From Chrysomallon squamiferum (lineage: Eukaryota > Animalia > Mollusca): DNA of 64,000 nucleotides. Positions within the stretch are counted from its first letter, which is position 1; each line of letters begins with the position of its first letter. Below are positions 16,935 to 63,066 of the stretch, one piece after another. The DNA lies in NCBI GenBank assembly GCA_012295275.1, contig CM022672.1, positions 20,522,001 through 20,586,000 of the forward strand. The letters are read 5' to 3'. The notes under the pieces are model-generated. The model saw only the letters and a list, made by a program, of their open reading frames with translations. It did not search any database and was not told the origin of the DNA. A program made the translations under genes and the position numbers.

Positions 16935-19099
16935 GCTTTCTCTCCACACTCACATTATAGTAAACAAATATAAAGGACAATACACTTTATTATTGTTGTT
17001 GCATTTCTTCCTCTTTGCTAGTTCGGTGACAAATACTTTCGCATGACTTACGTTCAGATCTAGAGATAAAAATAGCTTCATATCTCTCAGTGATCGGTTA
17101 ACAAGCATTTCTTTACAACAGGCGCTCCTTTCTATATTTTGTACTGGGAATCACGATTGTTATTTGAACAGAGTATAATATTTCACTGTCGTGTTTTAAT
17201 AAAACATTTAATATTTCTTGTTCGTGTATAATGTTGGTGGCGTTAGCCTAAATTCATGACGGTCTCTCTGTGTGTGTGTGTGTGTGTGTGTGATAATCAA
17301 GTATATATGTACACATATAGCAATATATATGTATTATTGATGAATGAATGTGTGTGTGTGTTAATCAAGTATAGATATACACATATGGCAATGTATATGT
17401 ATTATTAATGAATGAATGTATCTGTGCTATGTATTTATCTATAGATGTGTGTGTGTGTGTACTTACGTACTTACAAATGAATGTGTATCTATTGCCCACA
17501 ACTGTTTTATCACAAGCGGTGCTGTGTAACTTTCTGTCAGAAGAGACAAGTAAAATATAACGGCTACTAGCTGACATAACGTGTAGAACAACAAGTTTTC
17601 TAATTCACAGAGTCATTACAAATGTATGACTGACATCTAAGAACCATTAATATCAATATGTCATTAAGCATAATTAAACATATATTAATCATTCTAATGT
17701 TACAAATTATACTGTATGACACTTGACCTGTTAATTAATAATTAATGTATCATTGTTTAATAAACTGTTAGTTGTTGCACGTTACATCGGCATTGTAAAA
17801 TAAAGTGTTATGAGTAGAATGTCAGTGAGTGACATCGTTTATACTTCAGTTGTCTAAATGTGTTAAATGTTGCACATTTTATAATTAAAGATGCTAATAA
17901 CGCATTTTTCTTTATGAATTTTTGTTTTATTAGAATATTAAATATTAACTGGTTATAAAGGTTAAATAGATAGTAATTGTTAATCAGAAATCCTGCACAA
18001 ATTTTGGGTCTTCTGAATAAACATTGTTGACCAGGTTAGTAAAAAATATAAATGAATTCTTCGTTGGCATTGAACCATGCTCTATGCGACATTTAAACTG
18101 GCTTGTTGCTGAATAACTAGTTAACACTGTGTGTGTGCATACAACGACTACAGATAATCTACTTTGTTATTTAAGTATTGCTGAGATAGTCATCTACTAC
18201 AATTTTTTTTTTTTTTTTTTTGTCTTTGTCGAAATGTCAACGTATCGAAAACTGGTTTTGAACTGTGTCTTTGTTTCTCGACTGTCAGGTCTGCATATCA
18301 ACAACAACAACAACAACAACAATAATATTATATCAGTTAGATACATTTGAATTAACAGTTTCTTTAATTTATGTAAAACCTGTATATTTTATTTATCATT
18401 ATATAAACTGCTTTTTCTTTCAGCTGCTGGGTCTGGCGTTGACAGTAAGCGGGACGTACATTTTAATCACAACAAACAAACAGGTTGTCTCATTCATGGA
18501 CTTCGTCTTTGATCCAGCATGCCTCATAACTCTTGCAGGGGCTATATGCACGTTCATTGCATTCTTCGGCTGTGCAGGCGCACTCAGAGAAAACACCGGT
18601 TTTCTCAAAGTGGTAAATATAAAAATGTACATGATACCTGTGTGTGTGCATGCGTGTATGCGTGTATGCATGTATATGTGCATGTGAGGGCATGAGTATA
18701 TGTTTGTGTATGAATGTTTCCTAATGTAAAGTTATTAAATATTTACTGATTAACGTTCTTTTGAATAATAACGGTAATTATAATAATAACCATAATTGCA
18801 ATAATATGTATAAATAACATAGCTTTGTTTCTTTTTATTTTATTTTTTTTATTAATTTGTATTTTATTATGTATTTCGCGTAAGATACAATCTATCGTAT
18901 AAAAATAAAATCGGAATGTACTAAAATATAGCAACCTTTTTAAATCAGATAATGATGTTATGATTTTCCTCTTTATAATACTACTGCTGCCACTACTACT
19001 TCTACTACTGTTTCTTCTGCTACTACTACTACTTCTACTAGTGCTTTTACTGCAGATACTACTATTGATATTCCTTTTTTGTTGTCGCATTAACAACTG

Positions 19100-19170
<71 letters not shown>

Positions 19171-19731
19171 GTTAATACTACAACGACTTGTTCTACTACT
19201 GCAAATACTACTACTGATCTGTTTTTTTTTTTTTCCAGTATAAAATAATTTTGTCGGTACTGTTTATTCTGGAGCTGGCTTTCGTCATCATAATATTTAT
19301 TTACTATTATGTGCCTGACGTGAGAAAAACGCTGAAACTTTATCCCGAGGATTTACTCAAAACGGCTATAGAAAAATACGAGTCTGACGAAAAAGAAGAT
19401 TTGAAAAACGTTTTAGATACCATTCAGAAAACGGTAAGTTAATGAAACTCATTCTGTAATATTTCAGAATATACATTATAGTATAGTATTGTTATCTGCC
19501 GAATAAATTTAAAAAATATACATTATTTAGTGAATTTTAATTAATATTATTTTATTTAAAAAAAAAAGAAAAAAAAAAAAAAAAAAAAAGAAAGGTGTAT
19601 TTATTTTCTTATTTTGTTTTATTAAACAGATTTTTATTTTTAAATTTTATTTAGTTTTTATTTTAGTATAATTTATTATGTATGTTACACATTTATTACT
19701 TCGTATCACTTCACTATACTATTTATAATTT

Positions 19732-19774
<43 letters not shown>

Positions 19775-19902
19775 TATATCCTTTTCTTTTTCTAAATGTC
19801 GTCGTTTCATTAAGAGGAATGTAAAAAAATCCGTGATAGACTGAGGAAACAGAAACTTTTAATACCTTTTATTTCGTCATATTATTACTTGGTCGTCTTA
19901 TT

Positions 19903-19958
<56 letters not shown>

Positions 19959-20413
19959 TAAATAAAAATAAAAAAAAAAAAAATAAATAAATGACAACCT
20001 GATATTATTATGTTCAGTATATTTTAGGACATTTGTACGTATCATTAAGGAGAATAATTTATTTTCGAGACTGTAAAAATGTTATTATATATATATATAT
20101 ATCTTCCAGCTTCAATGTTGCGGTCTAAGTAATAATGAGACAGGTTATTTAAACTGGAATTTAAACAGATATTACTTTTGCAATGAGTCATCAGTCGGCG
20201 TTCTTAGTTGTTCAGTTCCCTTCTCCTGTTGCAAAATAAAACCGGTAGGTGGGGTTGTTTTCATTTATTAGTCCAGACTAACGTGTTAGTAATACTCATT
20301 TTCTGCTGTCTTTCTGCCTCTGTTCTTTTTCTTAAAAAATTTATGAGAATATTTATAGAACAGATTATTTACAAAGTTGTATAAACAAAACAAAATAATA
20401 ACCCCAGAAATAC

Positions 20414-52043: not shown

Positions 52044-53213
52044 TGCTTGTTTGTTTTTTCTGTACACTCACCACATTTTTCATCAGGACTGACTTCAGTG
52101 GTTTTTCGTCCAAACCCATCAACACACCAGCAGTAATCTCCAACACACTGCCTGGGTTCAAACAAGCCTTTAGTGCAGGTAGGCACAGGCACATCGGAAT
52201 GAGAATACAACATTTCCTCTCTGGCTTTGTCAGAATATTTCCTACAGGTTTCCATTTCGCAGAGTGTATGAGTCACTGAAAGAAAAATAACTGAAGCTAA
52301 CTCAAATTTTGTTTTTGCATTTTCTTCATTTTCTTCATATTTTCTTTATCTGTTTGTTAAATGTTATCATTATTTTTGGTCATGTTTTTGTAAAATAATT
52401 ATAAATACTCATACAAATGTTTTTTTTTTAAGAAATTGTTCTTAAAAGTAAAGAATTAGACAAAATTCTGTAATTTCAGTTAGATCTGTTGTCAAAATAA
52501 TAACAAAAAATTCTTTCTTACACTTCGACCTACTAAGTAAATAAAATAAAAAAAAAATTAAAATTTAAATTCTCTTTCACAAAAAAGAAAAATAAAACAT
52601 AGAAAAAAGAAAAGAAAAGAAAATAAAAGAAAAGAAAATTTCTTTTAAATTAAATTAAATTAAATTAAATTAAATAATTAAATATTTCAGATAGTTACCT
52701 TTGTTGCAGTCAGTGATTTTCTTTTTTGTCAGGAGGTCTACAAACTGGACGCGACAACTGCACGGGTCAACAGTGCACACAGCACATGGGTTGTTAGGAC
52801 AAGATACATCTGAGCATGACCGTGGGTCACACATAGGAGGAACTTGACCACTCGGACACACTGTCTTGGCTGAAGAAAGAAGGAGGCAGAAATAATTTAT
52901 ATGGTTAAGGACTGCTAGCATTATATGGGCTACTCTTTTAGTTTCTTTTTAGCAGCTAGACATCTTTTATTATGAATCTTCACCTACTTAGCAAAACAGA
53001 GGGTATGCTTGTGATGGTATTTAGCTCTCAGATGTGTTATCTAAGCATTAAACATTATTCCAGAAAACACTGGCAAGATTTTAAAACCATTTATTTATTA
53101 ACAACAGCAGTAATAATAAAAACAATAATAATAATATTAAAAAAAAAAAAAAAAAAATTTACCTGGACATTTCTCACTGGGTTCAGCTGTGAGAATAGAA
53201 CAAACATCATCTG

Positions 53214-53251
<38 letters not shown>

Positions 53252-53416
53252 ATTAGTTAACATAATAAATAAAAACACATGTCACTTCACTCCTTTTTTT
53301 TCCCCCATTTATCAGTTTGTTCTTTTTTATTGTTAAACTCTTTTCATCATTTAAGTTACATCAGCTGTTTTTGTTTTTCATAATTATTAAACTCTTTTCA
53401 TCTTTTAAGTTACATC

Positions 53417-53448
<32 letters not shown>

Positions 53449-54918
53449 CATTATTATTAAACTCTTTTCATCCTTTAAGTTACATCAATTTTTTTTTTTT
53501 TTTTTTTTTATTATTACACTTTTTTCATCATTTAGGTAACATCATCTTCGGTACAGCCCATTTCAGAAATTCAGACCATACATCTCAGACTGATTTAAAA
53601 TATCTAGTACCTCCACAGGTGACCCATTTCCCATTCTGGACAAAGCTCACATCACAGTGGTCATCACACAAATCAACAACACATGATGCATGTGGGTGGC
53701 CTGGACAAACTTCCTTTAGACACGAATTCAAACATTTCAGGTTGGGTGTCTTACCATTCGGACAGTTAGCTGAAGATCAAATAATATTTCTCGTCAGTTT
53801 GTTTGTTTTATGTAAATGTGTATTTAATTGTTGATTTTTCTGTGTGTTTCTTTGTTGGCCTGATTATATGTTTATTGGTTGGTTTCTGTATGTATGTCTT
53901 GGTTTGTTGGTTTGTTTAGGTATTTGTAGTATTTATTTCAAATAAAAAAATTTATATTGTTCAGTCATTATTTATTTATTTATTTATTTATTTGAATTCT
54001 GATATATATAAAATTAAAAATATATTTTTAAACTAATTTTTAAAAAATGACTGAATATTTATTTTTTTTATCTGATAATTATTTTCAAAATATATTCATA
54101 AACAATTATATTTTAAATATAATTATAGACAAAATTTTCTGGATTATAAAAATGACTAATCATAAATAAATAAAAATGGGTATAAAAATTAAGTAATTTA
54201 ACAACTGAAATCGCTAATAATAAAAAAAACTTATTAAAATTCAGGTGATAATCCAAAAAGATATAAAAAAAAAAAAAAAAAAATATTCTTTTTAGATTAC
54301 TGTCAGTAGATTTAAGTAGATTTTCAATTATAATTTTTCCCCCACACTCTTTGCTAAGTTTAAAGCATAAAGATATAATACATGATTATGTTCAGAGACA
54401 GCATAATATATTATTTTTTTTCCATGTACCAGGAAATTTAATTCAATGAACTGAACAAAACCCCGAAAGGCTGAGTAAACACATTTTCACCCGTTGAATA
54501 CTCAATCCATTCATAATATTTGCAGTTGATATGAAATGAAGATGAAATGGATTCCTACCTCCAGCCATCCACAAAAGATTTTATTTCGCTCATTTTATTA
54601 GAAGTAAGTATTGCACTTCATGCATGAGTAAACTAATGAAATGGAAGTAAACCTCACAGAATAAATTAACTTACCTATTTTAGAATCTTCATCCATTTTA
54701 TATTTACCTGTATGCAAAAAATATTTTTTAAATAATTATAATTCATAATTATCATCAGTTCAATTTAATTTAAAGATTATAAACAACAACAATAAGCAAA
54801 CAACTTAAGTTCTTTATAATTATAATAATAAATTTTCATTAACCTTAAAATAAACCAAACTGAATTTTAATAATTTACATATTTTTTAATCAAAATGTAA
54901 ATATATATATTTTTGGTG

Positions 54919-54950
<32 letters not shown>

Positions 54951-55403
54951 TTATTTTTTTTTTTTTTTTTATTTGATAAATAAAAGATTTTAATGAAACA
55001 AAATAAATAAATAGCAGTAACAACAACAGCAACTACATGTAATTACTTAATTACTGATAAATAAAGTAATATGCATCTTTTTTTCTCAAGACTTGTTTTT
55101 ACAAAGCAAGAGTAATAAATTAATATTTCAAACCATTGTCATCGCAAACAAGACTGAATCCCTTGGACACACTTCCTTCAACAGGGACGCCATCTTTTGA
55201 AACACACCAGCAGTAACCTTGGTGACACTGTCGCAATGCAAACTGGTCTCTGTTGCACTGTGGTTCATACACTCCACCAAAGTAGAAGTTAGAAATGAAT
55301 CCTGAAAGGACAATTAAAATATTTATTTAAAAATTTAAACAGTATTACTATAAAACAAATTTGTTAAGAAGATTGTAATTAAAATATTTAAATTTGGATA
55401 TAC

Positions 55404-55477
<74 letters not shown>

Positions 55478-58400
55478 CATAGCAACAATAACAATACTAA
55501 TATGAAGAAGAAGAAGAAGAAGAAGAAAAAAAAAAAAAAGAAATTAGCTGAGTAAATAAATATAATTAATGTTAGTATCATTGTTAAAAACTAATTAAGA
55601 CACTTTAAATTTTGAAATACTGTAACAATATATATATATATAAAATAACTAATTAAGACACTTTAAAATTTAAAATACTGTAAAAATGTAAACAAATATA
55701 AAATAATAAAAGTATATATATATAAAATAAACTAGCATCATTGTTAAAAGGCCACATATCAATTTAAATTAAATATATCAATTTCAAAACAATTGTTTAT
55801 TATATTATATTATGTTATTATTATATTATATTAATCATATCATTTCATATTATGTATTATATTATATTATATTATATTATATTATATTATATTATATTAT
55901 ATTATATTATATTATATTATATTATATTATATTATATTATATTATATTATGTATTTAATCAAAGAATAGATGTTTAATCAGATTTAAATGCACATACTTT
56001 TGCAGACAGGGTGAACATTGCATTTTCCATTACTACACGATTCATCTTCAGACAGCACACATTTTTCATCACTCTTGCATTTGTATATCTGAACAATTTA
56101 AAAAATATTTTAATTATTTTAAACTGGCAGTGCAAAAATACTTGAAAATGACCGCTCTTATAAAATATAAATTGAAAATACCAAAAATACAACAGTGCAA
56201 CTGGAATATGATGCTAATGATTTTTAATAATAATAATAACAACAGCACAGTGCAATAATATATATATATTCTTATAATTAGCAAAGTAATGATAATGATC
56301 ATGATAATAAATAAATAAACAAATGAAAGGTTTGCAAAGATGAGTGTTATTTAATATGACAGCCTTAAAGCATCAAATTATAAATAAATATAATAATAAA
56401 GTAACAAAGTATTATTATATAAAAATACAAATGATTAAGTAAATACTTCTTTTTATGGGAATGCTTTTATCAAAATGCACATACTTTTTCTCATTATATA
56501 TTCCTAAATTCTGCACACACAGATTTATTTTATAATATTAAAAATAATTTAGAGTCTAGCAGCAAAAAGAGAACCATTTTTTTATCTCTATTACAGCAAG
56601 TGAATATATAATAATCTACATAAATAAAAACAATTCATTTTTTGGGGGGAATTTAGAAAAGTAACATAATCAATGATGGCTGCCATAGAATTAACTTATT
56701 CATAAATATATTGTGTGAAACAGAAGGGACAGAATTCTGTTTTTATGTGGTTTCCCATATAAGGAATCTGATTATACCATCATTTACTTTATTTATATGA
56801 CAGAGATGAATAACCAGCAATAAAAACCAATAAGCAAACTAGAACTGACAAAAAGTATTAGCATAAATTTGTATGTTCATTGTAAAGTTCTTACCTCACA
56901 GGGACTTGCTTTTTTATTGCCTGAAAATAAACAAGTATATTTAATTATAATTTTTATATAAATAAATAACAGTTTATAAACAACTGAAAAAATAATATGC
57001 AAATTATTTCAGTAATAATTAGTAAAAATGTTTTTATAATGTTTTTGTATAAATATTTATCTAATAATTTGAAAAATGTTTAAAAGCCAACAAATATTTC
57101 AGTAATAAGTAATATAAAAATTTAAAATCTTATAAATGTTTCAATAATAATATGAAAAATATTTAGAATTTTATGAATATTTAAATAATAGTTTTAAAAT
57201 GTTTAAAATCCCATAACTATCTGAATAATGAATAAAACACACTAATAAAAAAGCTACTAAATATTTGTAAAAGGTTTAAAATGTAATAAATTTGGTACTA
57301 ACTTGTTTAAATTTTAAAATGTTATACATATATCAATAATAATAATAATAATTAGCAAAAACAAATTTTGGGAATAATGTATAACTTTTTTTCAGAGATT
57401 TAATAAATATTTTAACAATATTTATTAGTGAAAATATAATAAATATTTAAATAATTGATAAAAACAATAAAAGCAACAAACATTTTAATAATAAAAAGTT
57501 GGAGATCCTATAAATACTGCAATTATAATTTGCAAACATTTTCAGATATGATAAATAATTAAATATACAGTTAATTCTAATAATTCACATTCAGTATTTT
57601 ATTTATTTATGTTTTTTCTAACTGACTGATTTATTTATTCATTCATTAATTAATTCATTTATTTAATTATTTATTTACTTACCTTATACATATTCTTTAA
57701 CTTATTTATTTACTTTTTTACCTATACTTGTATTTTTATTGTTTATAAAATTTTATCTATTTATTTATTTATTTATTTATAATTACTATTGTGGTTGTTG
57801 TTATTATTTGTTTCTTTGCTAAGACTTATAACCACTCATACATTAACAAAACCCATGAACTAGTAAATGAAAAACAAAGTGACCCAGTCTTTGTAATTAC
57901 TTCTAAATACACTCACAATTGCTGTAACATGATTCTGCTGTTTCAAATTTATTTCCATTTGTTTCACATCCTCCGTAGATAAACATTTCACACCTCTGTG
58001 ATGTGGCATTGTAAAACCATGATGGTATGTATGCCCTGCACCTGCCAGTGAATGCTGGTTGTAGACAAACTGCAGGTATTTCTTGCACATCTGATAATAA
58101 TAATAAAAAAAACAACATTATTGTCTTTGAGCATTTCTTCACCAACTCCAAATTAGAAATTAAATATTGTGATCACATGAAAGTCCTTTTATGAACAGCG
58201 AAACAATACTGAATTAATTTATCAGTAACTGATTTGTGAATTTGTTAAGAATATTTTATCATCTGGTTGTCAAATAATGCTTTTTATACTATATTGAAAT
58301 AAATTATGAGTAAAGATGTGAATTTTTAACCTAAAATCATGAGTAAGTTTGTTCTGAATTTCTTGAGTATTTTTTATCATCCACAAATATTACTAGTAAA

Positions 58401-59927
58401 ACTATACTGTATTAAATTATGAGTTCGTGTTTTGTGAATTTCTTACATATTTTGTATCACCCATCTTATACATTATTATTAAAACTGTAGTGAATTAAGT
58501 TATTATGAGTAAGTGTAGTTGTGAATTCATCACACAAGCATGTACAATATTTATTTTCAGCAAAGATTTACTTCATGCATTAATTATCTGTTAATTATAA
58601 AAATTGATTCTGCAGTACATACATTTTAAATTAGTATCACAAGTGTAAGTGGCTTAATACTTGAGTATCTAATATGCCTCTGCCGATGTTAATAATACAA
58701 TGAGATTAAAAATATTGACAACTAATAAATAAAGGTAGCAACCTGAAGATGAATGAAGAGAACTGCTGTCGGCTGAGGACTTGGGTTTCAGAGGCATCCT
58801 GTTGATAGCATGCTGCAGACGATATGTGTGAGCTACATTCTTATCCTTCTGACATTTTGACAGACCTACAGAATAAAACAGAAAGAAAATAAAGAAGAAA
58901 TAATATATTTAAATATTGATAGTTATTGACTTAACAATTTTATGATTTTTGCATAATAATAAAATGACAAACAAGATCTGAAACTGCTGGAGTTCTGTTA
59001 TATATTAGCAGCAAGGAACCTTTTATATACACCTTCCCATAAACAGGAAAAAATGCAAATCATAACTTTAGATCTTATGTTAACACTTTGAATTCTCCTA
59101 TAAAGTCTAAAACAGACAAAAATAGATAAAACAGGTTTGTGTGAGAAAACTGCAAAAGTCTGTATTTAACTCACAGATGAGGAATTTATTATTTGTTTGT
59201 TTAATTAATTAATTTAATTTAATTTAATTTAATTTTACTTTACTTTAACTTACTTTATTTATTTATTTTTTGACTTACAGAATAATAATAACAAAAAATA
59301 CTGCTTTTCTGGATAGATCAATAAAAAAAAGAAAAATATTTTAATTCTAATTAATTCAGGTTATACAAATTAGGCAAAATATTTTACATTAATGCCATCA
59401 CAGAAAAACCTTCAGAAGTTTTACACTGAATTTCACTCTGTTCATAGAAAAACCTTTGGAAGTTATACAGTGAATTTCACTCCGTTCACAGAAAAACCTT
59501 TACAAGTTATACACTGAATTTCACTCTGTTCACAGAAAAACCTTCAGAAGTTATACACTGAACTTCACTCTGTTCACAGAAAAACCTTCAGAAGTTATAC
59601 ACTGAACTTCACTCTGTTCACAGAAAACCTTCAGAAGTTATACACTGAACTTCACTCTGTTCATAGAAAAACCTTCAGAAGTTCTACACTGAACTTCACT
59701 CTGTAAGGTTATTGCTACAGAAATGAAAACTCACCTTCGCTGCAGTTAACGATGTTGTTGTCATGGTCACGGAATTCCACTCGACAGCCTCCACATGGGT
59801 TAATGCGTGAAACAGCTGATGGTTGAGCAGGACAAGATTTCAGGTGACTCATTGAAGCATTGCAGCAATGTACTGCAACTCCTTTGGGGCATACTGTAAA
59901 TATTGAAATGACATTGTTATTGCTGTC

Positions 59928-59966
<39 letters not shown>

Positions 59967-62418
59967 GTTGCTGTTGTTGTTCTTGTTGTCATCATTATTA
60001 CTATATCAATTATTATTATTATTATGATTATTATTATTATCATCATCATTTCTTTAGGGGTTTTCTGTTTGTTTCATAATACTTTTTTTATGTATTTTTG
60101 GTTTCTTTTAAATTCTTTCACAAGATTTAAAATTTATTTCAAAATTGAATCAGGAAAATTAAAATAATTATTACCTAGATATTGTGTTTGAACAGAATAT
60201 TATGTTTTTTCATTATTGTTTAATATTTTAAAACAATTTTTTAATTTAAAAAAAATATATAAATAAATGAATAAAATAACAAGAAGAAAATTGGAAATGA
60301 TAAACAGTTATATAAATATTGAAAAAGAAAATAAATTTACTTTCAAAATTGTCCTTGATGACATTTGGTTCATTCACAGGTGAATAGTGATCTGGTGCTG
60401 AAAAAGAAAATAGAAAATCACACAAGTTTTGACACTGAGCTAAACACCAGCATAGGGTTACTTTATTGTACAGTACCACCATCACTAGTCTGGTAAGAGA
60501 AATATATTTCAATCACTAATTTACTGCTTTGTCAGTAATCTTTTGACAGGTTCAGAAACAAATGTGGTTGAAAATAATCTTGTTTAATTACTCTAATCAG
60601 TAATCTAATTCAGTACCCAGTCTGGCAAGAGTTATCTGGTTCAGTCACTAATCTGGCATCAGCATCCAAATCAGTCACTAATCTGGCATCAGTAATCCAG
60701 TTCAGTCAGTAATCTGGCATCAGTAATCCAGTTCAGTCATTAATCTGGCATCAGTAATCCAGTTCAGTCATTAATCTGATATCAGTAATCCAGTTCAGTC
60801 ACTAATCTGGCATCAGTAATCCAGTTCAGTCACTAATCTGGCATCAGTAATCCCTTCCCATATCTAAATTGTCACAACTTAGCATGAGTAATATGAATGT
60901 GCAGTTCCCAAATCTCTTTATTTATTTAATTTATTTAATTTTTTAATGTGCTATTTTTAGTCAGACTATTATGTCAAAACATTTAAATAAATTATCAGTA
61001 ACTGGAAAAACAAAAGTGTAAATGTACAATAGAAAAAGTTATGATTTGTGCTATCTATAATGTTGAAAGTTTTATACTTATATTGTATTTATCTGTAATG
61101 TTAATTTTACAATTACATATTGAACCTATTTCTAATGTCAAATTTTGTAAATATCTGTAATGTTGACAGTTTTACAGTTACCTTTTGTAAATATCTGTAA
61201 TGTTGACAATTTTACAGACAAATTTTTCAAATAATTGTAACGTTAACAGTTTTACAGTTAAATTTGGTAAATATCTGCAATGTTAAATTTTGTAACTTAC
61301 TTTTGTCACAGTTAGCAACACCTCTGGTTTTGGTGCCTGGGATCATTGTTCCATATTTGTCCACACACCAGCAGATTCCTAGAGCATCCTGACACTGTTG
61401 TTTTTTCCAGCTTCCATCCTTGTTACATCTGGGGAAAAAAAAAAAAAAAAAAAAAAAATTCAGTGACTTATCAACACATTATTTCTAGTATGAAGTACTT
61501 AAACAATGAGATGTATAAAAACTGGAACGATAAAATCTGGTATGTACCCTTTTCTTTATATTCATATAAGTAATTATCAGCAAGCAGTATTTGAAGCTTT
61601 AGCAATCCCAGTAAACTGGGTTTTTATATTATGACAGAATATCTGGTTATCTATGTTTTGGTGGGTTTTTTCAGTCCAGTATGATTCCTGGATATCATCT
61701 ATTTCTGTCATAGTTCAAATTTTTGTCATTAATCTAGGATATCCTTCTTGTCATTGAAAAGATTACAAGACATATTTATAGTATATCTGTTAAATGGATA
61801 CAATGATAAGTAAGTACAGTATTATGGTGTAGAAATATTTATATTTCGTACACTCCTGGGGACTGTCTACTTCTAATTTCTTAGTTTAACCCACCTTCCT
61901 GCTAAACTGAATAGATGAATAATATTTAAGTTTTGCTGTGTAGAAATATTTGTATTTTTACCACATATTTTACACCCACCCTGATAGATTAGATGTTAAC
62001 TAAGCTGAACAGATAGGTAGTATTTAAAAACTTATATTAAATACACCTGGGTATTTTCTGTATTTTCCACTTAGCCTAAGTTATATCCACCACCTTAGTA
62101 AAGAGATTAAACTAAACAAAATGAGTAGTTAATGTGTAAGTTTTACAGAGTAGGCATATTTTTATTTTATGCCACCTCACTTATGCCCACCCTGATAATG
62201 AAGACATTAACTCAGATGAGTTTGTAGATAAGTTTTTTATTTGTATTTCATACACACCTTGGTATTGCTGCTATGTTGCAGGTACCCGTTTCCAAATACA
62301 TTAGTTTGGAAGCAGTTTCCTTGGCCTCAAAACAGTTGTATTTTGAATCAGCTGGAATAGGATTAAAAAAAAAAAAAAATTATTATGTTATTAAAAAAGA
62401 AAGACTAAATTATTATTT

Positions 62419-62464
<46 letters not shown>

Positions 62465-63066
62465 ATAACACAACTAAATTGTAATGTTATTAATAAAGAA
62501 AGATTAAATTATTATGCTATTAGAAAAAGAAAATTAAGGGAAACCTTGACTGAACTACATCATAAATAAATATTATTTATTTATTTGTTTTGTTCATTTG
62601 TTTTTATTATTTTATTATTTATGGATTATTTTATTTATTCATTTATTACCAGTTCACACAGTTAGAAATAAATAAAGTGAATATATAATATACAGGTTTT
62701 TTTGTTATTTTTTTCTTTAACTTTGGGTAAATAACAAAAAAAAAAAATCCCTCCCAAAACAAAACAATTTTTTTTCAATAAAACAGACATAAAACAAACA
62801 AACAAAAAAAAAAAAAGAATGAGAAAAAGAAAACTAAAAAACAAACAAATAAAACTTACTTTGTAGATTAACAAAACTAACAAATTTATTTTCTGGATAA
62901 ATATAAGTAACACACTTACTTTCTGGATAAGGACTTGTGCATTTTTTGCTACATCCATTAAAACAACATGTCTGTCTGCCATGACAGTCAGCATCCCCTT
63001 CACAGTCTTTAGAACAACTTGCAAAATAGTTCTTAGGCTTAGGACATCGGCCTCTCTTGCATCGAG
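47532..63066 (-). CDS. Mosaic type I membrane protein (5' truncated by window): WAP, 3x thyroglobulin type-1, Kunitz, follistatin-N-like, 3x Cys-rich repeat, SEA, TM
   Basis: Exons (minus strand): 62920-63066, 62258-62351, 61301-61428, 60341-60397, 59735-59893, 58743-58865, 57917-58090, 56895-56920, 55998-56088, 55134-55301, 54675-54707, 53611-53769, 53163-53210, 52699-52869, 52072-52275, 51512-51599, 51080-51137, 50225-50320, 49508-49723, 48923-48988, 47532-47639. All introns are GT-AG with matching phases, giving about 803 aa of open frame. Three CWCV motifs, a Kunitz F.YGGC..N.N.F motif, the WAP Cys pattern, FKEGSII and one TM helix. Confidence 0.88.
47670..48490. repeat. Extremely T/A-rich low-complexity tract ((TTTA)n-derived) filling much of the last intron of the mosaic gene
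   Basis: About 800 bp with almost no G or C. Confidence 0.85.
49508..51599 (-). CDS. SEA-like domain and transmembrane helix exons
   Basis: VSVTAKIKFNQPFSRI...FEEEVRKALEKF...SIVFKEGSIICVITF... matches the SEA beta-alpha pattern with an F.xGS(V/I)(V/I) motif. It is followed by the TM helix LSLTVVIILATVGSFAGFLIIFGIAY. Confidence 0.72.
53325..53545. repeat. Tandem repeat of about 55-70 bp with a variable poly-T tract
   Basis: TTAAACTCTTTTCATC.TTTAAGTTACATCA(T)n, about 4 copies. Confidence 0.75.
55855..55950. repeat. (ATATT)n pentanucleotide microsatellite
   Basis: Direct reading. Confidence 0.9.
57917..58090 (-). CDS. Kunitz/BPTI protease inhibitor domain exon (P1 Arg)
   Basis: VCLQPAFTGRCRAYIPSWFYNATSQRCEMFIYGGCETNGNKFETAESCYSN(C). 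The last Cys codon is split across the intron (T|GC). Confidence 0.93.
58985..59047 (+). repeat. Probable short fragment of an interspersed (SINE-like) repeat
   Basis: ATTAGCAGCAAGGAACCTTTTATATACACCTTCCCATAAACAGGA resembles, from memory only, an abundant gastropod interspersed repeat. A possibly related fragment lies on the minus strand at about 35492-35512. Confidence 0.35.
59399..59703. repeat. Minisatellite, 44-bp unit (CACAGAAAAACCTTCAGAAGTTATACACTGAACTTCACTCTGTT), about 7 copies
   Basis: Near-identical tandem copies with no spacers. Confidence 0.92.
60638..60852. repeat. Minisatellite, 31-bp unit (TTCAGTCACTAATCTGGCATCAGTAATCCAG), about 7 copies
   Basis: Near-identical tandem copies. 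Confidence 0.92.
61085..61290. repeat. Degenerate tandem repeat of about 38-40 bp
   Basis: AAATATCTGTAATGTTGACA(G)TTTTACAG recurs about 5 times next to an exon donor. Confidence 0.7.
62920..63066 (-). CDS. WAP four-disulfide-core domain exon
   Basis: RCKRGRCPKPKNYFASCSKDCEGDADCHGRQTCCFNGCSKKCTSP matches K.G.CP...C...C..D.DC.....CC..GC...C..P. Confidence 0.9.

What the first reader, a model, noticed from the sequence alone, without database searches (positions are those of the whole stretch)
55134..58865. Kunitz inhibitor plus follistatin-N-like cassette nested inside a thyroglobulin type-1 domain
Seen in sequence: exon 58743-58865 encodes the N-terminal helix and first Cys of a Tg1 domain (GLSKCQKDK...) followed by a Ser-rich linker. 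The rest of that Tg1 (GVYEPQC..QC..YCWCV..DG..C) appears only in exon 55134-55301. Between them lie a complete Kunitz domain (P1 Arg, GRCRA) and a 6-Cys module (SPCEIYKCKSDEKCV..C..C..PVC). The insert is 291 nt and bounded by phase-1 introns, so skipping it keeps the frame (G|GA = Gly). Established: Tg1 domains (thyropins such as p41 Ii and equistatin) can inhibit papain-family cathepsins, Kunitz domains inhibit trypsin-like serine proteases, and Tg1 loops tolerate insertions in thyroglobulin. Inference: exon shuffling has placed a serine-protease inhibitor in loop 1 of a Tg1 fold, and splicing might switch it in or out.
Basis: partly seen in the sequence, partly recalled or inferred. Interest (0 to 1): 0.8.

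Follow-up and report, generated by a model that had tools for sequence, protein, structure and literature searches.

The report
Kunitz inhibitor nested inside thyroglobulin domain
In a likely mollusc cell-surface protein, a spliced Kunitz domain predicted to block trypsin-like proteases sits between the two halves of a thyroglobulin type-1 domain, likely as a loop held shut by one disulfide; related animals fill the same slot with other inhibitor-type modules, and prawn and crayfish gene models show theirs both included and skipped.

Summary
The five exons are GT-AG, the insert is 291 nt between phase-1 introns, and one RNA contig in each of 4 of 4 runs (one study) joins them in order. The abalone orthologue has the same nest, with 18 of 18 Cys aligned. 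Nesting rests on comparison. Coral paralogues have the same helix-Cys start 17-24 residues before the Tg1 core. Of 21 long-loop relatives, 20 put an even number of Cys between the two host cysteines. The fold model did not resolve the pairing. Skipping is unsupported in molluscs: 0 of 4 runs and 0 of 28 abalone and scallop isoforms. Seven of 8 introns here are phase 1, so a kept frame proves little. The wider picture is a loop-1 slot filled by Kunitz and follistatin-N-like modules in molluscs and by WAP domains in arthropods and a tardigrade. Gene models of five decapod species show the WAP both included and skipped. With a 148-residue loop the host Tg1 is likely a scaffold rather than a cathepsin inhibitor. 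Large loop-1 insertions are known in thyroglobulin. New variant of a known kind; interest 0.5.

The parts
59735..59893 (-). Exon for an unnamed Cys-rich module that directly precedes the host Tg1; in coral paralogues the same module precedes unsplit Tg1 domains
   Evidence: no Pfam family; model pLDDT 85
58743..58865 (-). Host Tg1 N-half: helix with first Cys (codon 58854-58852), then a Ser-rich linker
   Evidence: RNA joints; Cys invariant in alignment A1; adds about 5 bits to a Tg1 profile when placed before the C-half
57917..58090 (-). Kunitz domain exon, phase 1-1, P1 Arg (GRCRA); sixth Cys codon is split across the next intron
   Evidence: PF00014 65.4 bits; PDB Kunitz hits; RNA; Cys positions
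56895..56920 (-). 26-nt exon: end of the Kunitz domain and first Cys of the 6-Cys module
   Evidence: RNA joints on both sides
55998..56088 (-). Rest of the 6-Cys module (follistatin-N-like by recalled Cys pattern)
   Evidence: RNA; 15 of 39 identical to Haliotis, all Cys kept; no Pfam match above cut-off
55134..55301 (-). Host Tg1 C-half: second Cys (codon 55257-55255), QC, CWCV, last Cys
   Evidence: PF00086 positions 20-65 of 67, 41.7 bits; RNA
62920..63066 (-). Upstream WAP domain exon of the same gene (context)
   Evidence: PF00095 40.7 bits; collinear with Haliotis P0008; not covered by the RNA lay
61301..62351 (-). Upstream unsplit Tg1 domain on two exons, 62351-62258 and 61428-61301 (context)
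   Evidence: PF00086 49.5 bits for the second exon; not covered by the RNA lay
52699..54707 (-). Downstream linker exon (54707-54675), two more copies of the unnamed module (53769-53611, 52869-52699) and a 48-nt exon between them (context)
   Evidence: RNA joints
52072..52275 (-). Membrane-proximal unsplit Tg1 exon (context)
   Evidence: PF00086 34.7 bits
49508..49723 (-). Exon with a hydrophobic, predicted transmembrane segment; the protein is likely type I membrane (context)
   Evidence: translation, borders; a similar hydrophobic C-terminal segment in seven relatives; junctions not tested with RNA

Best explanation
The five exons are spliced into one transcript of a large, likely type I membrane protein, in which the thyroglobulin type-1 domain likely folds from two distant halves and acts as a disulfide clamp that displays a Kunitz domain predicted to inhibit trypsin-like serine proteases. 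Shown: the splicing, the domain content, and conservation in abalone. Inferred: the SKC cysteine pairs with the PQC cysteine (the C1-C2 bond of Tg1), closing a 148-residue loop 1 that holds a Ser-rich linker, the Kunitz domain and a 6-Cys module, each with its own paired cysteines. Inferred: the cassette is constitutive in molluscs, and the host Tg1 is a scaffold rather than a cathepsin inhibitor because loop 1 is part of the thyropin binding wedge. Inferred: if the linker is cut, the C1-C2 bond would keep both chains and the inhibitor tethered to the membrane, as in EpCAM. The same loop is an old insertion slot that different lineages have filled with different inhibitor-type modules.
For: One contig per run carries all joints in 4 of 4 RNA runs. 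Haliotis XP_048244920 is 44% identical over 384 aligned columns, same order, P1 Arg kept, 18 of 18 Cys aligned. In 9 of 10 cnidarian rows the same module is followed by a helix-Cys start and a Tg1 core only 17-24 residues later; the tenth row is a pattern slip into the next domain. In 21 long-loop rows the spacing is 41-295 and the Cys between are even in 20 (0, 4, 6, 8, 12, 16, 22); the exception is a hemichordate with 1. Decapod skip isoforms, a millipede and one unnamed Logan protein have no Cys between C1 and C2 over 41-190 residues, leaving no closer partner. C1 and C2 are invariant in the six-sequence alignment. The first 14 residues of exon 58865-58743 placed before the C-half score 45.1 bits against 39.7 alone; 0 of 200 shuffles reach it (mean 40.2, max 44.4). 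The rival PVC cysteine gives no gain (42.3-42.4 against 42.4). The Kunitz part of the abalone model matches BPTI (Z 8.5, rmsd 2.2, 58 aligned). Precedent: residues 378-615 of human thyroglobulin form an insertion in loop 1 of repeat 1.5 (PMC8748809, passages). Only TY domains with short loops inhibit cathepsins, and cleaved EpCAM stays tethered by C66-C99 (PMC7349879, passages).
Against: No structural test of the pairing succeeded: the AlphaFold model of the abalone stretch had mean pLDDT 59, with the Tg1 C-half blocks at 33-59 and an over-long helix at 57-92. The profile gain is small (about 5 bits) and comes from an artificial short fusion. The real skip form scores only as a C-half (35.5 bits), and 195 of 200 shuffles of the first exon score at least as high. 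The PVC-to-PQC spacing of 16 residues is within the usual C1-C2 range. Constitutive inclusion rests on assembled contigs from one study, which drop rare forms, and on database gene models. The chiton and one unnamed relative have degenerate Kunitz inserts, so inhibition is not needed in every lineage. No activity was measured. The transmembrane exon was not checked with RNA.
Confidence: 0.65

Rival explanations
1. The cassette is an alternatively spliced switch in this animal: some tissues skip the Kunitz plus 6-Cys block (291 nt) or the Kunitz exon alone (174 nt), turning serine-protease inhibition off.
For: Both skips keep frame and an even Cys count. The equivalent nested WAP is present in some and absent in other gene models of five decapod species: Macrobrachium rosenbergii 2 of 4 listed skip, M. 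nipponense 1 of 5, Palaemon carinicauda 2 of 6, Panulirus ornatus 1 of 4, Cherax quadricarinatus 1 of 3 (Pfam counts 4 against 5 WAP).
Against: No skip joint in 4 of 4 runs. 0 of 16 Haliotis and 0 of 12 Pecten isoforms skip, although those clusters hold isoforms lacking up to 271 and 445 residues elsewhere. 7 of 8 introns are phase 1.
Confidence: 0.12
2. The unit is a two-headed inhibitor: the host Tg1 still blocks papain-family cathepsins while the nested Kunitz blocks trypsin-like enzymes.
For: The host keeps six Cys, CWCV and a Gly and Pro at the end of loop 1 (GGVYEPQC). Conserved Gly and Pro in loop 1 were proposed to matter for protease recognition (PMC10889554, passage).
Against: Loop 1 is one of three binding loops, and a larger loop 1 is said to hinder binding (PMC10889554). 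Long loops prevent inhibitor-style binding (PMC7349879). Here loop 1 is 148 residues, or 51 if skipped.
Confidence: 0.13
3. There is no nesting: the Tg1 core takes its first cysteine from the nearby PVC motif or lacks the helix, and the SKC cysteine bonds elsewhere, so the domains lie simply in series.
For: PVC to PQC spacing is 16 residues, a normal C1-C2 distance. The fold model did not show the long-range pairing with confidence. Interdomain disulfide swaps exist in a tick thyropin (PMC10889554).
Against: It would leave the 6-Cys module and the SKC Cys each unpaired. Relatives without the 6-Cys module (chiton, decapods, millipede) keep the same helix-Cys and PxC anchors. PVC gives no profile gain. 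Coral paralogues show the helix-Cys start as part of compact Tg1 domains.
Confidence: 0.08

Closest known systems
Human thyroglobulin type-1 repeat 1.5 (and 1.3, 1.7, 1.8) with non-homologous insertions (PMC8748809, passages)
   Same: A Tg1 fold closed around a very large loop-1 insertion (residues 378-615); the insertions expose proteolysis-prone segments.
   Different: The passages describe those insertions as non-homologous sequence with at most two extra Cys. Here the insert is two Cys-rich modules, one a recognised inhibitor family, and the protein is predicted to be membrane-anchored.
EpCAM / Trop2 (PMC7349879, passages; PMC8042651, search listing)
   Same: Type I membrane proteins whose TY loop 1 protrudes, is cleaved, and stays tethered by the C1-C2 disulfide. 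Their order of small Cys domain, TY, Cys-free domain and TM resembles the membrane-proximal end of this gene.
   Different: Their loop is short and holds no domain. Homology of the flanking domains was not shown.
Arthropod Thy/WAP/antistasin/Kunitz multidomain proteins, including Drosophila CG5639 (PMC3407033, passages and supplement 3)
   Same: Same broad family: the window's relatives in crustaceans, scorpion and millipede carry Tg1, WAP, Kunitz, antistasin and lustrin domains.
   Different: That supplement draws the domains as a simple series, with no nesting that its text shows. The mollusc proteins carry Kunitz rather than WAP in the slot. I did not fetch CG5639 itself.
Thyropins (p41 invariant-chain fragment, equistatin, saxiphilin, IrThy; PMC10889554, passages)
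   Same: Tg1 type 1A Cys pattern and CWCV core.
   Different: They have compact loops forming a three-loop wedge; the host here has a 148-residue loop 1.
BPTI/Kunitz inhibitors, including membrane-bound HAI-1 and HAI-2
   Same: Six-Cys pattern, basic P1, and sequence and fold matches to BPTI, TFPI, HAI-2 KD1 and SmCI.
   Different: From recall, those Kunitz domains lie in series with their neighbours and not inside another domain's loop.

Membership tests
Thyroglobulin type-1 domain (PF00086, type 1A) | PxC..QC..CWCV..C core | tested here: met
   PF00086 41.7 bits over positions 20-65, cut-off 20.6
Thyroglobulin type-1 domain (PF00086, type 1A) | N-terminal helix carrying C1, six Cys in all | tested here: met
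   Exon 58865-58743 aligns to profile positions 2-14; 0 of 200 shuffles reach the fused score; paralogue and orthologue anchors. The signal is weak on its own (3.7 bits).
Thyroglobulin type-1 domain (PF00086, type 1A) | C1-C2 disulfide formed across the insert | tested here: inconclusive
   Abalone model is low-confidence in the C-half; only Cys parity supports it
Thyropin (MEROPS I31) | Short loop 1 that fits a three-loop wedge | tested here: not met
   148 residues between C1 and C2, 51 if skipped, against 17-24 in coral paralogues; criterion from PMC7349879
Thyropin (MEROPS I31) | Inhibits cysteine cathepsins | not testable with these tools
   needs an assay
Kunitz/BPTI (PF00014) | Six-Cys pattern and profile match | tested here: met
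   65.4 bits, cut-off 21; six Cys, the last split by an intron
Kunitz/BPTI (PF00014) | Basic P1 for trypsin-like targets | tested here: met
   Arg follows the second Cys, as in TFPI (alignment), and is kept in three Haliotis species; the P1 position itself is recalled
Kunitz/BPTI (PF00014) | Inhibits a serine protease | not testable with these tools
   needs an assay
Follistatin N-terminal-like (FOLN) | Profile match and 4-Cys pattern (pattern recalled) | tested here: inconclusive
   No match above cut-off for the 30-residue exon scanned alone; 6 Cys here and in abalone, 4 in scallop and oyster
Alternatively spliced cassette | Frame kept on skipping | tested here: met
   291 nt, no stop; uninformative because 7 of 8 introns are phase 1
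Alternatively spliced cassette | Skip junction seen in transcripts | tested here: not met
   0 of 4 runs (contigs drop rare forms); 0 of 28 Haliotis and Pecten isoforms
EpCAM/TROP family | EpCAM-type N-terminal domain and SEA-fold C-terminal domain flanking TY | tested here: inconclusive
   Weak Trop2 rows only (Foldseek E 7.6; phmmer E 0.024); home-made SEA profile scores at most 2.9 bits

The most novel reading that the evidence does not exclude
Loop 1 of one particular Tg1 domain in a conserved bilaterian surface protein is a plug-in slot for protease-inhibitor modules. It holds Kunitz plus a 6-Cys module in gastropods, two Kunitz with or without a WAP-like module in bivalves, one or two WAP domains in arthropods and a tardigrade, and a module-free loop with a dibasic site in hemichordates. 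The C1-C2 disulfide tethers the cargo to the membrane even after the loop is cut, and decapods switch their cargo by splicing.
Probability: 0.55. Interest if true: 0.62.

Novelty: new variant of a known kind. Interest (0 to 1): 0.5.

Why it matters
Profile searches see only the C-half of this Tg1, so automatic annotation draws the domains in series and misses the nesting in a whole family of invertebrate surface proteins. If the reading holds, it is a natural series showing one small disulfide-clamped fold accepting 40-300-residue inserts with whole domains, swapped between lineages and skipped by splicing in decapod gene models. That is a testable case of domain insertion, a candidate scaffold for protein design, and a lead on how invertebrate epithelia control surface proteases. 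It does not overturn a principle, since large loop-1 insertions are known in thyroglobulin.

Tried and rejected
No whole genome is held for the window. A word-based search with the Tg1 C-half exon found nothing, so the window's own spliced protein could not be folded; the abalone orthologue stood in. Its model from six sequences was low-confidence in the Tg1 C-half. The 50 Foldseek rows shown were all Kunitz-domain entries, and the wide VIA search listed no Tg1 structure, which says nothing either way. A deeper-alignment fold of the nested unit was not obtained, so the C1-C2 pairing stays untested by structure. A two-chain prediction of the two host exons gave 'no answer' (score 0.03, controls not folded) and is not used as evidence. 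ESM Atlas gave only a 0.77 hit for the unnamed module. A third homologue search added mostly cnidarian paralogues. An EpCAM/Trop2 link for the unnamed module and the C-terminal region was not confirmed: no such Pfam family appeared, there was no PDB sequence hit, and Trop2 was absent from the VIA rows at Z 2 or more. The C1-C2 spacing range (15-28) is bounded by my search pattern and is not a free estimate. Tegillarca P0058 has a Kunitz directly before a Tg1 C-half, but its partial model lacks the N-half anchor, so it is not among the 31 rows. Literature: searches for a nested Kunitz-in-Tg1 gave 0 papers; some searches gave background papers; one search gave 0. Novinec et al. 2006 on the Tg1 superfamily is not held and may already mention such inserts. 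Earlier scan findings: none.
Full report
Observation. The window is AT-rich animal DNA (27.5% GC). The finding lies in a minus-strand gene. The insert is 291 nt between phase-1 introns, and skipping it keeps the frame. Four RNA runs of one study each hold one contig (3.6-6.6 kb) that carries every junction from exon 59893 to exon 52699. The exons therefore belong to one transcript. Pfam finds a Kunitz domain (65.4 bits) and only the C-terminal two-thirds of a Tg1 domain (positions 20-65 of 67); the first exon and the 6-Cys module match nothing above cut-off. The sixth Kunitz Cys codon is split by an intron, so skipping only the 6-Cys module would create a stop.

The gene. Upstream lie a WAP exon and an unsplit Tg1. 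Downstream lie two more copies of an unnamed Cys module, another Tg1, a Cys-poor region and a hydrophobic segment. A search with the unnamed module gave 72 proteins. The best full match is Haliotis rufescens XP_048244920 (3525 aa), 44% identical over 384 columns and collinear with the window's exons. The window is therefore likely a mollusc, probably a gastropod (inference). The family includes the arthropod Tg1/WAP/Kunitz/antistasin proteins catalogued in PMC3407033 (passages and supplement 3 read).

Is it really nested? The structural test was inconclusive: the abalone model had mean pLDDT 59 and a poorly resolved Tg1 C-half. The comparative evidence is consistent. In cnidarian paralogues the unnamed module is followed by the same helix-Cys start and, 17-24 residues later, by the Tg1 core (9 of 10 rows; one row is a pattern slip). 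In 21 other rows the same two anchors are 41-295 residues apart, and the number of Cys between them is even in 20; a hemichordate has one. Decapod skip isoforms, a millipede and one unnamed protein have none between, so their first Cys has no nearer partner. Both anchors are invariant in a six-sequence alignment. Placing the first 14 residues of the window's first exon before the core lifts a home-built Tg1 profile score from 39.7 to 45.1 bits, above 200 of 200 shuffles, whereas the nearby PVC Cys adds nothing. Against: the gain is small, the real skip form is still scored as a half domain (35.5 bits, matched or beaten by 195 of 200 shuffles), and PVC sits at a normal C1-C2 distance. I put nesting at about 0.9.

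What fills the slot. Abalone (three species): Kunitz with P1 Arg plus a 6-Cys module, 18 of 18 Cys aligned to the window. Scallop: two Kunitz plus a 4-Cys module. Oyster: a WAP-like module, two Kunitz and a 4-Cys module. Chiton: a degenerate Kunitz. Scorpion, isopod and decapods: a long linker plus WAP. Tardigrade: two WAP-type modules. Millipede: a short loop. Hemichordates: a long loop with a dibasic site. Apart from the Kunitz and WAP matches, these module labels come from reading Cys patterns. An RxxR-type motif occurs in 5 of the 21 long loops; I see none in the window's.

Splicing. There is no skip joint in 4 of 4 runs, and all 9 H. rufescens, 4 H. cracherodii, 3 H. asinina and 12 Pecten isoforms include it, although they differ widely elsewhere. 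Contigs and gene models miss rare forms, so low-level skipping is not excluded. Seven of 8 introns here are phase 1, so a kept frame is expected by default. In decapods the 52-residue WAP in the same loop is present in some models and absent in others within five species (2 of 4, 1 of 5, 2 of 6, 1 of 4, 1 of 3; 15 of 19 members of the Macrobrachium-Palaemon cluster were listed). These are database models whose read support I did not check.

Mechanism. Most likely the Tg1 is a clamp. Its C1-C2 bond would close a 148-residue loop and present a trypsin-type Kunitz inhibitor on the cell surface. Loop 1 is one of the three loops by which thyropins bind cathepsins (PMC10889554, passages), and a review states that only TY domains with short loops inhibit (PMC7349879, passages). 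Even the skip form leaves 51 residues. The host is therefore probably not a thyropin. The same review notes that EpCAM cut in this loop stays joined by C66-C99, which suggests how a cleaved loop could stay tethered here (inference). No activity has been measured.

Novelty. Large Tg1 insertions are known: residues 378-615 of human thyroglobulin sit in loop 1 of repeat 1.5 (PMC8748809, passages; also bioRxiv 10.1101/2025.06.18.660348, passages; its supplements are closed). I found no paper on a Kunitz or WAP domain nested in a Tg1, but the library lacks most subscription papers, including Novinec et al. 2006. Verdict: a real feature and a new variant of a known kind. The value lies in the cross-phylum slot rather than in a splicing switch in this species. 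Interest 0.5.

Noticed in passing
window 59893-59735, 53769-53611, 52869-52699 (-): The unnamed Cys module has no Pfam family. Its model (pLDDT 85) best matches the Nerita carboxypeptidase inhibitor NvCI (Z 4.4, rmsd 2.4, 43 of 51 aligned; next row Z 2.4). A lead only; an internal copy would lack the free C-terminus that such inhibitors use (recalled).
   Followed up: partly
window 59893-59735 (-): This copy has Ser at two positions where relatives have nearly invariant Cys (alignment positions 15 and 28). Their joint loss suggests that these two normally pair.
   Followed up: no
window 52869-49508 (-): The membrane-proximal order (small Cys module, Tg1, Cys-poor domain, predicted TM) resembles EpCAM/Trop2. 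Only weak hits support it, and VIA did not list Trop2.
   Followed up: partly
window 62351-61301 and 52275-52072 (-): Both unsplit Tg1 domains carry a seventh Cys. The upstream one is kept in Haliotis and could pair with the extra Cys of the CC pair in the following module.
   Followed up: no
window 58042 and 56052: RNA contigs differ from the window at 15 listed exon positions between 53611 and 59893, 6 non-synonymous. One run has Met two residues before the Kunitz P1, as abalone does; P1 is unchanged. All four runs read Ala for Ser at 56052.
   Followed up: partly
P0107, P0114 and other decapod proteins: The WAP domain nested in the same Tg1 loop is included or skipped among gene models of five decapod species.
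   Followed up: partly
window 38618-37458 (-): Single-exon 387-codon open frame that looks like a rhodopsin-type GPCR (label recalled, not tested).
   Followed up: no
window 18262-20268 (+) and 30737-29325 (-): Exons of what look like two tetraspanin genes facing each other (label recalled, not tested).
   Followed up: no
window 4419-3274 (-): Exons resembling a lipase maturation factor gene (label recalled, not tested).
   Followed up: no
window 59700-59440: Short tandem repeat array in the intron just before the host Tg1 N-half exon, seen by eye.
   Followed up: no
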